This document shows positions 22,301-37,300 of a DNA stretch of 52,393 nucleotides, in pieces. Position 1 is the first letter of the stretch, and the number at the start of each line of letters is the position of its first letter. This DNA is from Verrucomicrobiota bacterium (GTDB lineage: Bacteria > Verrucomicrobiota > Verrucomicrobiia > Verrucomicrobiales > DEV007), in NCBI GenBank assembly GCA_045046875.1, contig JASFYY010000087.1, positions 1 to 52,393 on the forward strand. The letters are read 5' to 3'. A program made the position numbers.

Positions 22301-25300
22301 ATGCTCTAAAATTGAAGTTGCTGTTTTGTGTTCTGTTTAAAGAAAGAGGGAGCATAAGGAAACGATAAAATATATCTGGTTCAAATGGACAAAGAAAAAA
22401 TTGCTATCATTGGAATGGGCTGCCGCTTTCCCGGCAAGCTGAATGATGTGGAATCTTACTGGGATTTTTTGCTGAAGGGTGGGAATGCTGTGGTGGAGGT
22501 GCCTTCGGATCGCTGGAATGTGGAGCGTTTTTATGATGCTGAGCCTGGTTTGGCTGGCAAAACGATCGCTAAGTGGGGGGGCTTCATTGAAGGCATTGAT
22601 CAATTTGATCCGCAATTTTTTGGAATTTCACCGCGTGAAGCTCCGTATATCGATCCACAGCAGCGTCTGTTGCTGGAGACGGCTTATGAAGCGATCGAAG
22701 ATGCCGGGGTGATCCTTGATTTTGAGAATGGCACTAATATTGGCGTGTTCGCCGGTATTTCACATACGGATTACCAGAGCATCCAGGGAAGTGCGACGGA
22801 TAGAACGGGCATCAGTCCTCATTCTCCGACCGGAAATGCGCACAGTATCGCTGCCAACCGGATTTCATATTGCCTGAACCTGATTGGACCTAGTATCGCT
22901 ATGGATACGGCTTGTTCGTCGGCGCTCAGTGCGACGCATGCAGCTTGTGAGGAACTTTTGAAAGGTCGCTGTGACATGGCATTGGCCGGTGGGGTGACGG
23001 TGATGATCACTCCAGACGGTTTTATCGGTTTTTCCCAGGCGGGAATGCTTTCGCCTAGTGGGCAATGCCGGGCGTTTGATGCTTCGGCCAATGGTTTTGT
23101 GCGTGGTGAAGGCGCGGGCATGGTTTTATTGAAACCACTTTCCAAAGCAGTAGCTGACGGAGATCAGATTTATGCGGTGATCAGTGGTACTTCGACCAAT
23201 CAGGACGGTCACACCAATGGGATTTCACTGCCCGGTGAGGACGCGCAACGGCGCTTGGTGAAAGATGCCTGTAAGGATGCGGGTGTTGACCCGAGCACTA
23301 TCGGTTACGTCGAAGCTCACGGCACAGGAACGGCAGTGGGGGATCCGATTGAGGCGCATGCTTTGGCGGGTGCTTTGTGTGAGAATCGTTCTGCTGATGA
23401 ACCATTGGCGATTGGTTCGGTCAAATCCAACCTGGGACACTTGGAGACGGCTGCGGGCGTAGCGGGTCTGATCAAGGCGGCTTTGGTGGTCGAGCGCGGA
23501 CAGATTCCGCCGAGTTTGCATTTTGAAAAACCCAGCGAGCACATCGATTTTGACGAGTGCAAGTTGCGGGTGCCGGTTGAAGTTGAAGATTTCCCTGAAA
23601 CCAATGGTGACGGGCCTCGTCTGGTGGGAATCAACTCTTTTGGTTTTGGTGGAGCGAATGCGCACATTATTCTGGAACAGCCTCCGGTTCAGGAGACCAA
23701 ACGCAAAGCTTCTGGGAAATCGGCCAAATCTTGGCCGGTGATGCTTTCTGCTCGTTCGGAAGAGTCGTTGAAAGCGGCGGCGGGTGATCTGGCGGACTGG
23801 GTGGAAGCCCAGGACGTGAGTGAGGGAAGTGATACTTTATTGGGGGATCTGGTGTTCACGCTGGGGGCACGACGCAACCAACACGCTTATCGCCTGACGG
23901 CAGTGGTCACTTCGGCGGCCGAGTTGGTGGAGGAGCTGCGTGCTCACGTCGAAGAGGAGAACGGCACCACTTTGCGTGATTCGTTCACGCCGGCACCGGA
24001 ACATCCGGTTCGAGTGGGTTTTATCATGAGTGGTCAGGGACCACAGTGGTGGGGCATGGGACGGGAACTGATGGCGAGCGAGCCGGTGTTTCGCGAGGCG
24101 ATGGAAGCTTGTGCGGCGGCGATGGAGCCACATGCGCAGTTTTCGCTGCTTGAGGAACTGGCACGCGACGAGGAAGATTCCCGTTTGAAACAAACGGCGA
24201 TTGGCCAGCCGGCTATTTTTGCGATGCAGTATGCGCTGTGTGAATTGTGGAAATCGTGGGGGGTGGAACCTGCTGCGATCACTGGTCACAGTGTGGGCGA
24301 AATTGCCGCGGCCTGCCTGGCAGGAATTTTGACGATGGAAGAAGGCGCGCGAGTGATCGTGCTGCGGGCACAGTTGATGAATGAGTGTGCGCGTGGAGAA
24401 GGCACGATGTTGGCGATAGCGGTCACTAAGGAGAAAGCGGAGGAATTGATCAACAAGCACGACGCTTCGGTGAGCATCGCCGCTTTCAACGGCCCGCAAT
24501 CTTTGACTTTGTCTGGACCGGAAGCTGCGCTGAAATTGATTCAGGAAGAGCTGGAAGCTGAAGAGATTTTTGCGCGTTTTGTGAAAGTGGATCATCCTTT
24601 CCATCACGCTTTGATGCAACCTGCCGCTGATGCTTTGGAAAAAGCGCTGGCAGATTTCACTCCGCAGGAAGAGACGGTGCCATTTTTCAGCACGGTGACC
24701 GGAGAGCGTTGTGACGGCAAAGACGTCACCGCTAATCACTGGGCGCGAGGCATTCGTCAACCGGTGCAATTTGTGTCTGCGGTGGGAGCTGTGGATGAGT
24801 TTGGAGTGGATGTGTGGCTGGAGATCAGCGCTCATCCGGCTTTGGCGATTTCGATCAAGGAGTGCCTTGCTGATAGTGAGAACAAATCGACGGTGGTAGC
24901 CTCGGCTCGTCGTGAGCGCGAGTATGCTTCGGCTCTCGAAGCCGCTCTCGAACTGCATCGTTTGGGTGTGGTGATGGATTTTGCGGCGATGACGCCATCG
25001 CGCCATCTGTTGACTCTGCCGACTTACGCCTGGAATATGGAGCGTTGGTGGCATGAAGCTGGAGAGCTGCGCGACAGTCGTCTGGCTCCCGGTGGCAAAG
25101 GTTTGCTTGATACCCGCACGCCACGTGCCACCCCTACCTGGACTACTCGTCTCGATGAGCGTCACATGGCTTACCTTCGTGATCATAAAGTGGACAGCCA
25201 CGTGGTTTTCCCTGCGGCTGCTTTTATCGACATGGTTCTGGAAGCTGGGATCGAGATTTTTGAAGGTCGTCCTTTTGCGATCGAAGGTCTGGATATTCGC

Positions 25301-34300: not shown

Positions 34301-37300
34301 GACGCTGATGTCGCGTGCGGTGATGATCGCGGTATTGGTGGGTGTGGTCAGTGGTTTGTATCCGGCTTGGAGGAGCTCGCGCTTGACGCCGAGTGTGGCC
34401 CTGCAGGGGTGACAAAACGAAAATTAAAAAATTTGCACATCGAGCGATGAAACTCGGAGAGCTGGTAGAAAGAATAGAAGGAAGCCTTGAAGGGGATGCT
34501 GAGTTGGATATCAGCGGGATTGCGGGCTTGGTTGAAGCCGTAGCAGGCGAGCTCAGCTTTTTTTCCAATCCAAAATACGCATCCCTGCTGGCAGAAACCA
34601 AGGCTTCGGCAGTGATTGTTGCCGAGGATTGGGAAGGCAGCAGCCCGTGTGCGGTGATCAGGGTCAAGTCTCCTGATAAAGCGATGGCGATGGCAGGTTA
34701 TGCATTTGAGCCTAGCTGCCACCCTTTGGCAGATCCGGGTATAGATGTGGCGAGTTCTGTGCATGAAGATGCTTGCTTGGATGCAAGTGTCAGCGTGGGA
34801 CCGTTCTGTGTGGTGCGACCTGGCGCGGTGATAGGACCGCGCACGGTATTGGTGTCCGGCTGTTATGTCGGCAGCGATGCGGTGATCGGCAGTGACTGTG
34901 TTTTGCATGCCAATTCGGTGGTGCGGGAAAGGGTGGTCCTTGGGAATCGGGTGATTCTCCATGAAGGTGCCGTGGTGGGAGGTGAGGGTTTTGGCAATTA
35001 TTTGGAAAACGGGGTGTGGCAGAAAATCCCTCACATCGGCACGGTTGAGATCGGCGACGATGCGGAGATCGGGGTGAACTCGACCGTTGATCGGGCACGT
35101 TTTGGCAAGACCGTCATTGGTCAGGGAGTGAAGATCGATAACCTGGTGATGGTCGGGCACAATGTGCAAGTCGGGGATCACACGGTGATGGCGGCCCAGG
35201 CTGGCATCGCAGGAAGTGCGACGATTGGCAGCCACGTGGCGATCGGTGGGCAGGCGGGGTTGGCTGGGCATTTGCATGTGGGAGACACCGCGAGGGTGGG
35301 GGCTCAGGCAGGGGTGACAAAAAATATTACAGAGGGAGTATATGTGACAGGTTACCCTGCCATTCCTCATGACAAAGCAGCCAAAGGGCATGCCAACTTG
35401 ATGCGCTTGCAGAAGTGGAAGGAAAAAGTGAAGCTGCTTGAAAAGAAGCTGGCGGCATTGGAGCAGGAAAAAAGCTAATATGGACAATAGATGGATTTGG
35501 TTGAACTTGTCGGCTATGATGTCCTTACGAAGTATATTTTTGACAAGTGCGGTCTGGTTATTTTTCAACGGACTGGTTTTGTTGCAAGCGCAGCAGTCTT
35601 CCCCGGATGTGCATACGTTCACTGCCAAAAATGGCAAGACTTTGACCGCCCGGGTTTTGGGAGTCAGTGGCGGTAAGGTGTCGATCAGTCGAATGAGTGA
35701 CGGCAAAAATTTTCAACTGCCTGCCAACAGTCTGAGCGCGGCGGATGTGACCTTTTTGAAAACCTGGCTCAAGCATCGCGAGTTGATGGGGCATCCGGCG
35801 GGATGGAAAATCCTGCGCGTGCATTTGCCGGAGTTTGTTGATTCGGTTGAAGCCCCGGGCATTCCGGCTGCTTTCCGGCGGGTGGGCTTGCACACCTGGG
35901 AGGCTGAGTTGCCGGAAAAAGCCTGGGTATTGATCCGGCTTTGGCGGCGCAGTGGCGATTGGTATGCACCGGAGTTTTTGCTGCCTTATGACGGGCAGAG
36001 TGAGTGGACCTTTACTTATCAGAAATCGAAATTGTATCGATCAGTAGCCGCGGGGAAAAGCCGTCCGGTGCTGGTCGGAATCGACATCGAGGATGACGGG
36101 GGCAAGGAGCAGCTCAAAGCTCTCAAGGATGAAATACCCGATAGCGGGGTTTGTATTTTTGCTGGTTTTCTGGATGACGCGGATTTTGCTTTGTTGGGAT
36201 CCAAGCCGGTATTTTCCTTTGTGGTGAGAAAGACCCCACGGTTGTCCGTAGCGGGTTCGAAAATCCGCGCGATCCGGGTGATCCGGGATTTGGTTTCTTT
36301 TGACGGGTTGAGCAGTTTGAAAGAACTTGAGTATTTGGACATCACCATGACGGGGGATTTTCCCCTTGGTGATGTGTCGCGGCTCAAAAGCTTAACCACC
36401 TTGGTAGCCGATGGGGATGTCAGCTTGGGGCCTGCGACCGGGGAATCGGCGTGGCCGGCTTTACGTCGATTGTCACTGCAGCGCGCGGATATAGAGGACG
36501 CGGACAAGTTTGGTGATTTCATCGCCGGGTTGCCGGAATTGGAAAGCCTGGCACTGCCGGATGAGAATGAAATGAATGTGAAGGGGGTGGCGGCGTGCCC
36601 CAAGCTGTCGGTATTGAGGCTTGGCGATGAATGTTATGATCCGCAGGTGGCCGGGTTGAAGGAATTGAAACAACTGCGCACGGTGTTTTTGAGCGGGACT
36701 TATAATGGCAGCGAAGTGGTGGCTCTGGCTGATGGGGGATTGTTTGCAAAGGTCACGACTTTAAAAACGCATGTGGAGATGCCGTTTTCCAAATTGCCTC
36801 TGTTAAGCAACTTATATCTGACCGGAGATCAGGATGATCTGGATATGGCCATCCTTGCCGGGATTGCCGGGTTGACCAACTTAGAGGTGCAGATGATGAG
36901 CTCGGATGATGTGCAGGCGTTGCAAAGCAGCGCTGCGAATTTGAAAAAATTAAGCATGCTTTCCGTTCGTTTCCCCCGATGTCCGGACATTGCTGCATTG
37001 GCCAAATTGCCGGCTTTGAAATATTTGAAGGTGTATGAACAATTTGGAACATCCGAGCAGGATTTGACGGCCTTGAATGTGACTGCCTTTGCGACTCTGC
37101 AGGGTTTGGATCTACAGCAGATGCAGAGCTTGCAAAGTGTTAAGGTCGCAGGGGGCGGCAGTGTTTTGTCGGCGGTCAGTATTCGTAAATGCGGGGAACT
37201 GAAATCGCTGGTTGCTGCGGAGCTTGCGCAGAATATGGGGGAGCTTTGCATCGCCAATTGCGACCAGTTGGCGGATCTGGAAGGATTGCTGAACCCGGAT

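What a model noticed while it worked through the whole genome (the two positions that open the first line are those of the whole stretch)
22385..34412. Order-wide conserved operon: fungal-style highly reducing PKS, stand-alone condensation domain, desaturase and ABC expor [...]
A single-module KS-AT-DH-MT-ER-KR-ACP synthase (2579 aa) is followed by a free condensation domain with an intact HHxxxDG motif, a desaturase and an ABC exporter. The order is fixed across Verrucomicrobiales, predicting a methyl-branched, desaturated acyl chain joined to an acceptor and exported, probably an envelope lipid.
Evidence so far: Domains, best Swiss-Prot hit a fungal HR-PKS. Condensation gene in 32 of 121 order genomes, 3 families; PKS-C-desaturase-ABC order in 14 of 14 other loci read.
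(Added by a program. Inside this text positions count along the whole contig: contig position 1 is position 1 of the stretch shown here. "Call 12" and the like, gene names such as g00115 and contig names such as C1 are that model's own, and its searches are not shown. The text may have been shortened before it was handed on; [...] marks where a part breaks off. The agent that wrote the report below was given it as the finding of a first reader that could run no searches.)

Follow-up and report, generated by a model that had tools for sequence, protein, structure and literature searches.

The report
Verrucomicrobial polyketide lipid synthesis-export cluster
Many Verrucomicrobia carry a conserved gene block that probably builds a methyl-branched fatty chain, joins it to an unknown head group and ships it to the outer membrane by its own Lol-like carrier system; we found no description of its product.

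Summary
The operon is real and intact: catalytic residues of all seven PKS domains, the C-domain motif and the di-iron histidines are invariant in 27-34 orthologues. Three claims need correcting. (1) It is patchy, not order-wide (63 of 301 order genomes; 0 of 85 in one family), and also occurs outside the order (PKS-C-desaturase in 8 of 10 loci read there). (2) It is fungal-like in domain order only: KS and methyltransferase are closest to bacterial enzymes, and a WcbR-like PKS has the same domains. (3) The block is larger: a periplasmic LolA-fold carrier (47 of 61 loci; here at 14090-14911) and often a dedicated AsnB-like amidotransferase (37 of its 38 carriers have the cluster; not found in this genome). 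Best reading: an iterative methylating PKS whose free C protein releases the chain onto a free head group; a type VII ABC plus LolA-like shuttle, separate from the housekeeping Lol genes, carries the lipid outward. It works like TwmB/OaaC chemistry with PDIM/aryl-polyene-style export. Acceptor, desaturation versus hydroxylation, and destination are untested. The scan already found this system on another genome (e1-3891094). No paper found in seven targeted searches.

The parts
22385..30124 (+). Single-module cis-AT PKS, KS-AT-DH-cMT-ER-KR-ACP, with no TE, R or loading domain; predicted iterative
   Evidence: Pfam domains. Invariant in 34 of 34 orthologues: KS C177/H312/H352, AT S636/R661/H737/H740, DH H934/P943/D1099, MT Y1373/E1407/G1409/G1411/H1484, ER G1973/G1975/G1976/G1978, KR D2263/D2264/S2305/Y2319/N2323, ACP D2482/S2483
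30023..30073 (+). Conserved acidic C-terminal stretch after the ACP (residues 2547-2563); candidate docking helix for the C protein
   Evidence: D2549, D2555 and L2561 invariant in 34 of 34; last 45 residues have mean net charge -10.1. The docking role is inference
30139..31524 (+). Free-standing condensation-domain protein with an intact HHxxxDG motif and a conserved basic N-terminal helix; predicted chain-release enzyme
   Evidence: PF00668 201 bits; motif invariant in 33 of 33, residues 6-22 mean net charge +2.9; own clade with support 100 against 115 other C-family domains
31549..32505 (+). Membrane di-iron desaturase/hydroxylase-family enzyme; reaction type unknown
   Evidence: PF00487; H67/H71, H103/H106/H107, H220, H255/H258/H259 invariant in 27 of 27; model pLDDT 83, with fold matches including AlkB and SCD1 at weak E-values
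32572..33291 (+). ABC ATPase of LolD/MacB type
   Evidence: TIGR02211 LolD best at 242 bits, below its cut-off of 308
33297..34412 (+). Four-TM MacB/LolC/FtsX-type (type VII) permease with a large periplasmic domain
   Evidence: MacB_PCD + FtsX; four hydrophobic segments; PDB hits MacB, YtrF, LolC; a much better LolC/E match lies elsewhere in the genome, on contig C8 (293 versus 53 bits)
14090..14911 (+). Periplasmic LolA-fold carrier: a core member, displaced upstream in this genome
   Evidence: PF17131 103 bits; present in 47 of 61 loci and directly after the permease in the full six-gene order in 35; 25 of 29 metagenome loci with >=5 kb held downstream; model pLDDT 90, Foldseek best DUF1329 4z48, 3bk5 and LolA3 9tp6 (TM 0.72-0.76), weaker LolA, LppX, LprG; canonical LolA is separate, on C126
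14927..16300 (+). PaaK/F390-synthetase-like adenylate-forming ligase; variable accessory gene
   Evidence: NCBIfam hits all below cut-off; PDB AjiA1/PaaK-like; in 5 of 61 loci, none of which has AsnB, but similar genes occur elsewhere in other genomes
16670..17860 (-). SAM-methyltransferase-like protein; variable accessory gene
   Evidence: No Pfam hit; ESM Atlas neighbours carry Methyltransf_20; 16 of 61 loci
17909..21251 (-). Two paralogous alpha/beta-hydrolase lipoproteins (17909-19549, 19611-21251); variable accessory genes
   Evidence: Abhydrolase/PGAP1; signal peptide ending in Cys, read by eye; family in 18 of 61 loci
21427..22053 (-). Chalcone-isomerase-fold protein with a signal peptide (fatty-acid binding for this fold is recalled); variable accessory gene
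   Evidence: PF16036 129 bits; 5 of 61 loci

Best explanation
A biosynthesis-plus-trafficking module for a specialised envelope lipid. Step 1 (domains shown, iteration inferred): the single-module PKS repeatedly extends a chain with malonyl units, alpha-methylates at some steps with SAM and reduces fully, giving a methyl-branched acyl-ACP. Step 2 (inferred): having no TE or R domain, it hands the chain to the free C protein, probably through an acidic-tail/basic-helix docking pair. The C protein releases it onto a freely diffusing head group. An amide to a carboxylate-bearing amine such as an amino acid is the likeliest chemistry (about even odds), because a dedicated glutamine amidotransferase accompanies about 60% of clusters. 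Step 3 (inferred): the inner-membrane di-iron enzyme desaturates or hydroxylates the product. Step 4 (inferred): the type VII ABC extracts the lipid from the inner membrane and passes it to the LolA-fold periplasmic carrier for delivery to the outer membrane.
For: Intact catalytic residues in every domain across 34 orthologues. The KS begins at residue 4, and no adenylation, PCP, TE, second PKS, membrane-fusion or TolC family appears among the window's 30 scanned ORFs or among the annotated families shared across 41 loci. PKS is upstream of C in 57 of 61 genome loci and 65 of 68 informative metagenome loci. LolA-fold gene in 47 of 61 and 25 of 29 loci, while housekeeping LolA and LolC/E lie elsewhere. 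Accessory genes suit lipid handling: lipoprotein hydrolases, CHI-fold protein, TPR proteins with signal peptides. AsnB orthologues (>=66% identity) occur in 38 of 301 genomes, 37 of them among the 63 C-positive genomes, with N-terminal Cys and ATP loop intact. Precedents: TwmB PKS-C amidation with free beta-alanine or 5-aminopentanoate (PMC11153888, passages); free-standing OaaC joining acyl-ACP to free amines (PMC13310621, abstract and one section); LolA-like genes in aryl-polyene and flexirubin loci (PMC8253772, PMC11885536, passages); LppX plus an ABC in PDIM export (PMC11539658, abstract and introduction).
Against: No product, expression or mutant data. Patchy distribution (63 of 301; 27 of 63 in one genus) fits a dispensable metabolite as well as a structural lipid. 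Two loci keep PKS-C-desaturase with no ABC within 6.5 kb (L107, L108), one more has none within 4.9 kb (L062), and one lacks the desaturase (L034). The C protein keeps the canonical Gly of the motif, whereas free-amine CFAA domains mostly have Ser/Ala there, and its best PDB hits are PCP-dependent NRPS C domains at only about 128 bits. AsnB was not found in this genome (best hits 31-37% identity) nor in 26 of 63 C-positive genomes. The permease scores higher on MacB (75 bits) than on LolC (45). No LolB-like partner was identified. No Sfp-type PPTase was found in this 94.7%-complete genome.
Confidence: 0.55

Rival explanations
1. The product is a secreted small molecule (signal, surfactant or antagonist): an N-acyl amide like wortmanamides or gut fatty-acid amides, pumped by a MacB-like exporter with partners encoded elsewhere, the LolA-fold protein only chaperoning it through the periplasm.
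For: Patchy distribution and two copies of C in some genomes (G192, G091); permease closest to MacB among solved structures; variable tailoring genes (methyltransferase-like, GT1 glycosyltransferase, ligase); TwmB and OaaC products are small acyl amides.
Against: No membrane-fusion protein or TolC family conserved in the loci; strong retention of a LolA-fold carrier (47 of 61); very high conservation (PKS about 60% identical or more across families) with no sign of module shuffling.
Confidence: 0.25
2. The C protein makes an ester, not an amide: it acylates a hydroxyl on a sugar, diol or lipid A precursor (PapA5/SgcC5-like; these roles are recalled), giving a wax ester or glycolipid.
For: A glycosyltransferase family 1 gene lies beside the PKS in 2 of 61 loci; lpxD follows the permease in this window; PDB entry 4znm (recalled as SgcC5) is hit at 84 bits.
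Against: lpxD is adjacent in only 2 of 61 loci; GT1 is rare; PCP-dependent amide-forming C domains score higher than 4znm.
Confidence: 0.15
3. AsnB acts at the start, not the end: it amidates a malonyl or succinyl starter, so AsnB-bearing strains make a chain with a terminal carboxamide (a two-headed lipid), while other strains use another starter, supplied in some by the PaaK-like ligase. This is compatible with an envelope role but changes the structure.
For: AsnB homologues amidate PKS starters in gladiolin and glutarimide pathways (bioRxiv 10.64898/2026.04.24.720606, abstract only); AsnB and PaaK-like genes never share a locus among 61 (33 and 5).
Against: Those systems use a dedicated free ACP and AT, and no such family is conserved here; many loci have neither gene; PaaK-like genes also occur in AsnB-positive and cluster-negative genomes.
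Confidence: 0.15

Closest known systems
Fungal HR-PKS-C TwmB (wortmanamides)
   Same: Single reducing PKS module whose chain is released by a C domain; in TwmB onto free beta-alanine or 5-aminopentanoate (PMC11153888, passages; the original paper was not read)
   Different: Here C is a separate protein, the PKS is of bacterial descent, and a di-iron enzyme, type VII ABC and LolA-fold carrier are attached; acceptor unknown
Gut-bacterial fatty acid amide pathway (OaaC, CFAA clade)
   Same: Free-standing C domain beside an acyl-ACP donor, no downstream PCP (PMC13310621)
   Different: Donor is a PKS-made chain; the motif keeps the canonical Gly (33 of 33), unlike most CFAA; dedicated envelope transport genes
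Mycobacterial PDIM locus (Mas/Pps, DrrABC, MmpL7, LppX; PapA5 recalled)
   Same: Iterative reducing PKS for methyl-branched acyl chains, separate transferase, ABC transporter and LolA-fold carrier in one block; Mas is the best whole-length PDB hit; LppX and LprG appear in the fold search
   Different: Methyl groups would come from a SAM cMT domain rather than methylmalonyl-CoA; NRPS-type C protein; ABC is type VII, whereas DrrABC is type V (PMC11539658); no RND transporter; Gram-negative host
Aryl polyene / flexirubin clusters
   Same: Gram-negative lipid clusters with their own LolA-like gene proposed for outer-membrane delivery (PMC8253772, PMC11885536); the PaaK-like ligase weakly hits the FlxY model
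   Different: Type II polyene synthase, RND transporter and LolB-like partner there; type I reducing PKS, C protein and ABC here
WcbR/RkpA-type capsule-locus PKS (family label recalled)
   Same: Same KS-AT-DH-MT-ER-KR-ACP string and size; a Caballeronia example matches all seven domains, KS 52% identical
   Different: Partnered with a PLP aminotransferase-fold enzyme and capsule export genes, not a C protein or LolA-like carrier

Membership tests
Fungal highly reducing PKS | Single module KS-AT-DH-cMT-ER-KR-ACP | tested here: met
   Pfam domains; residues invariant
Fungal highly reducing PKS | KS and cMT closest to fungal HR-PKS enzymes | tested here: not met
   KS: CurL 455, PikAI 442, Mas 427 versus LovB 336 and PsoA 320 bits. 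cMT: CurJ 209 versus LovB 101. Similarity ranks against PDB only, not a tree
Fungal highly reducing PKS | Iterative chain building | not testable with these tools
   Inferred from lack of a loading domain or partner module
PKS-C amide synthases (TwmB type) | C domain fused to the PKS C-terminus | tested here: not met
   Separate ORFs in the window; open frames of about 450-570 aa in the listed orthologues
PKS-C amide synthases (TwmB type) | Release onto a free omega-amino acid | not testable with these tools
   Acceptor unknown
CFAA clade (OaaC) | Non-canonical motif with Ser/Ala after the Asp; sister to starter C domains | tested here: not met
   G159 invariant in 33 of 33 versus Gly in 17% of CFAA; no CFAA sequence was available for the tree
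LCL-type NRPS C domains | Nests among LCL domains and acts between two PCPs | tested here: inconclusive
   Best PDB hits are NRPS elongation C domains, but the family forms its own long-branch clade and my context labels were noisy; no PCP gene conserved nearby
PDIM/sulfolipid systems | Methylmalonyl-specific Mas/Pks2, PapA acyltransferase, MmpL | tested here: not met
   Pks2 model 1210 bits versus cut-off 2400; cMT present; AT H737-x-F739-H740 is malonyl-type by recalled motif rules; no MmpL in the window
Housekeeping LolCDE/LolA | Passes LolD, LolC/E and LolA family cut-offs and is the genome's main copy | tested here: not met
   Below cut-offs; better LolC/E and LolA matches lie on contigs C8 and C126
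LolA-fold superfamily (PF17131 LolA_like) | LolA-like beta-sheet fold, cleavable signal peptide | tested here: met
   103 bits over cut-off 30; TM 0.72-0.76 to 4z48, 3bk5, 9tp6; hydrophobic N-terminus
Membrane fatty-acid desaturases | Three histidine boxes | tested here: met
   Invariant in 27 of 27
Membrane fatty-acid desaturases | Introduces a C=C bond into an acyl chain | not testable with these tools
   DesA 32 bits versus cut-off 500; one orthologue prefers the GntB hydroxylase model, also far below cut-off
WcbR/RkpA capsule PKS loci | PLP-enzyme partner and capsule export genes beside the PKS | tested here: not met
   None in the window or among the shared families annotated

The most novel reading that the evidence does not exclude
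An undescribed class of Gram-negative outer-membrane lipid (a methyl-branched polyketide acyl amide of an amino acid or similar, amidated in many strains), carried by a second, dedicated Lol-type pathway (type VII ABC plus LolA-fold shuttle) that moves a non-protein lipid: a convergent Gram-negative counterpart of the mycobacterial PDIM system, spread over several orders of Verrucomicrobiae.
Probability: 0.35. Interest if true: 0.75.

Novelty: new variant of a known kind. Interest (0 to 1): 0.56.

Why it matters
If right, abundant and poorly studied Verrucomicrobia make an unknown branched envelope lipid, which could serve as a biomarker and explain surface properties. The block would also be a compact test case for two open questions: whether pathway-specific LolA-like proteins and type VII ABC transporters move non-protein lipids (proposed but untested for flexirubin, PMC11885536), and how a free C protein releases an iterative bacterial PKS chain. 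Public records of the PKS are named for cultured, non-pathogenic species (Verrucomicrobium spinosum WP_081452535.1, Roseimicrobium gellanilyticum WP_113959924.1, Prosthecobacter debontii WP_078814461.1), so it is directly testable. Every part has a known analogue, so this is a new combination rather than new chemistry shown.

Tried and rejected
Lipid A link through the adjacent lpxD: rejected, adjacent in 2 of 61 loci. Order-restricted range: suggested by the phylum sample (4 of 401 at E<=1e-50, all in the order) but overturned by the class search with the desaturase profile (10 genomes of other orders among 401) and by their loci. C-domain subtype by tree: the first run timed out; the FastTree run was inconclusive because labels from gene context were noisy. 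The representative-protein search was swamped by multi-module NRPSs and says nothing on range. The desaturase had no match in plasmids, and its fold search did not resolve the reaction. RNA evidence: no RNA holder listed; no reads were laid. Promoter and terminator scans were near shuffle level (15 versus 11.9; 28 versus 22.3). The PaaK-like ligase as a strict alternative to AsnB: weakened, as similar genes occur in AsnB-positive and cluster-negative genomes. tblastn with a Deinococcus PPTase found nothing in the genome. Di et al. 2024, a Verrucomicrobia genome-mining paper cited in PMC12714770, is not held; PMC13103446 failed to load. My first ORF picker dropped some genes under antisense ORFs, so presence and order counts come from tblastn.

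
Full report
Observation. Pfam gives KS (from residue 4), AT 546-858, DH 907-1179, methyltransferase 1387-1560, ER 1853-2147, KR 2171-2348 and ACP 2454-2519; then Condensation, FA_desaturase, ABC_tran and MacB_PCD+FtsX. 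There is no TE, R or A domain. In an alignment of 34 full-length PKS orthologues (60-90% identical to the window's), catalytic positions of all seven domains are invariant (their roles as catalytic residues are recalled). The cMT aligns over about 350 residues with CurJ cMT at 209 bits. The C motif is invariant in 33 of 33 and the histidine boxes in 27 of 27. These alignments used 33, 27 and 34 of the intact ORFs from the first 41 loci, leaving out some near-duplicates and mis-called starts.

Range. With the C protein as query, 63 of 301 order genomes have an orthologue (E<=1e-100, 45-98% identity; full-length non-orthologous hits are at or below 30%): 9 of 86 in the own family, 13 of 38 in f4, 41 of 85 in f5, 0 of 85 in f2, and 27 of 63 in the best-sampled genus. 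So it is patchy, and many genomes are incomplete MAGs. Record titles confirm Verrucomicrobiales/Verrucomicrobiota. A phylum sample found it only in the order (4 of 401), but a class search with the desaturase profile hit 10 genomes of other orders among 401. Eight of those 10 loci hold PKS-C-desaturase and six of the eight also hold the ABC. A source names one desaturase homologue as Chthoniobacter sp.. I ran the class search after reading earlier finding e1-3891094, which described the same block on another genome.

Gene order. In 61 loci (window, 40 chosen, then 20 more, 11 of them), tblastn finds PKS-C adjacent in 57, PKS-C-desaturase in 55, the five-gene order in 44 and the six-gene order ending in a LolA-like gene in 35; the LolA-like gene is somewhere in 47. 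The 17 exceptions are: inserted accessory genes (L051, L054, L055, L058, L059, L115, L116, L121, L122, the last also lacking a PKS within 11 kb), no desaturase (L034), no ABC nearby (L062, L107, L108), desaturase alone (L109, L112, L114), and PKS-C with nothing further before the contig end (L123). In 80 metagenome loci (the best of 429 confirmed), PKS is upstream in 65 of 68 and the desaturase downstream in 61 of 67 with enough sequence; the LolA-like gene is in 25 of 29 with at least 5 kb downstream. Related genomes are not independent samples.

The LolA-like gene is at 14090-14911 in this window. Its model (pLDDT 90) matches DUF1329/LolA3-type structures at TM 0.72-0.76 and, more weakly, LolA, LppX and LprG. 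The genome has its housekeeping LolA and LolC/E elsewhere, so the four-TM type VII permease, ATPase and carrier form a dedicated paralogous set. No membrane-fusion protein or TolC is in the window or among the shared families I annotated from 41 loci; singleton ORFs were not annotated. An AsnB-like glutamine amidotransferase lies divergently upstream in 33 of 61 loci. Its orthologues (>=66% identity) occur in 38 of 301 genomes, 37 of which are C-positive; seven further hits at 46-49% were set aside as a sister group. It was not found in this genome, which instead has a PaaK-like ligase beside the carrier (5 of 61 loci). Other variable members are TPR proteins (28), lipoprotein hydrolases (18), a methyltransferase-like protein (16), an unknown exported protein (8), a CHI-fold protein (5) and a GT1 glycosyltransferase (2). 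lpxD is adjacent in only 2 of 61 and is not part of the block.

Not fungal by descent. Among solved structures the KS scores CurL 455, PikAI 442 and Mas 427 bits against LovB 336 and PsoA 320 (the nominal top row, 7zma, sums two stretches). The cMT scores CurJ 209 against LovB 101. Plasmid-borne PKSs from Caballeronia, Deinococcus and Gloeocapsa match all seven domains.

Mechanism. Shown: domain content, conserved active sites, linkage, fold of the carrier. Inferred: iteration (no loading domain or partner module); malonyl extension with SAM methylation (AT motif rule recalled); release by C in trans. A conserved acidic stretch after the ACP (mean net charge -10.1 over the last 45 residues) and a conserved basic N-terminal helix on C (+2.9) look like a docking pair; this was not modelled. 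With no A or PCP partner the acceptor is probably free. The tight link to an amidotransferase implies a carboxylate somewhere in the product or its starter, which favours an N-acyl amino-acid-type head group but also fits starter amidation. The di-iron enzyme may desaturate or hydroxylate: it is far below the DesA cut-off, one orthologue prefers an arginine-hydroxylase model, and the fold search does not decide. Export to the outer membrane rests on the type VII ABC plus LolA-fold carrier and on analogy to aryl-polyene, flexirubin and PDIM loci, where for flexirubin the role is itself only proposed. Against this reading stand the patchy range, loci without the ABC or desaturase, the canonical C motif and the MacB-leaning permease. 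I put it at 0.55, a secreted acyl amide at 0.25, ester linkage at 0.15 and starter amidation at 0.15 (the last two are not exclusive of an envelope role).

Comparison with what is known. It works like TwmB (PMC11153888, passages; original not read) and OaaC (PMC13310621, abstract and one section) for release, and like PDIM (PMC11539658, abstract and introduction) or aryl polyene/flexirubin loci (PMC8253772, PMC11885536, passages) for trafficking. It fails a defining feature of each, so it is not filed under any of them. Seven searches aimed at this cluster (listings only, except passages of PMC5826242, PMC11427321 and PMC12714770) found no description. The library lacks most subscription journals, Di et al. 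2024 was not held and no supplements were read, so the cluster may be catalogued there as an unnamed T1PKS family.

Verdict. A real, widespread, uncharacterised biosynthesis-and-export block built from known parts in a new combination, testable in cultured strains. New variant of a known kind; interest 0.56.

Noticed in passing
L085:9720-19736 (-), G000 contig C6: A second, unusual 3338-aa megasynthase: NMO-like (FMN-type) reductase-KS-AT-KR-embedded PPTase-C-carrier-TE, with no A domain. C-domain hits in open frames of about 4000 aa occur across the own family, including many genomes of genus g2, where 40 of 40 have some C hit; these may be its orthologues, which was not checked.
   Followed up: partly
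G000 C21:4176-4475 and C6:46248-46580: The only PPTase hits in the genome are an AcpS-sized gene and the domain embedded in the second megasynthase; which one primes this PKS is unexplained.
   Followed up: partly
L128:8095-24673 (Deinococcus sp. KNUC1210 plasmid, NZ_CP092189.1): A same-architecture PKS flanked by a PPTase and followed by a condensation-domain gene, SagB-family dehydrogenase, thioester reductase and aminotransferase; its C gene gave no tblastn hit to ours, so an independent PKS plus free C pairing.
   Followed up: partly
L059:5637-6437 (-) and relatives: An unknown exported protein of about 220-250 aa (no clear family) sits between the desaturase and the LolA-like/ABC genes in several of the 8 loci that hold it; candidate extra transport component.
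   Followed up: partly
L109, L112, L114: Close desaturase orthologues without PKS or C nearby (one beside the TPR gene; one a second copy in a cluster-positive genome), suggesting cluster break-up or reuse.
   Followed up: no
window 34393-38829: lpxD, an LRR protein, tatA and an EEP-family nuclease follow the permease on the same strand; lpxD overlaps it by 20 nt as called, so they may be co-transcribed here.
   Followed up: partly
window 39408-52037 (-): MoxR AAA-DUF58-BatA-vWA block with an ABC ATPase and unknown genes; ordinary for PVC bacteria.
   Followed up: no
window 95-6565 (-): DUF1501 / DUF1549-DUF1553 / PPC-domain trio typical of PVC genomes.
   Followed up: no
window 7511-10202: DUF3293 gene, an HNH endonuclease and an unknown gene in a lower-GC stretch (0.45 at 8001-10000); possibly a small insertion.
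   Followed up: no
L060:17439-19081: MlaD-domain and ABC auxiliary lipoprotein genes inserted between the permease and the LolA-like gene in one locus.
   Followed up: no
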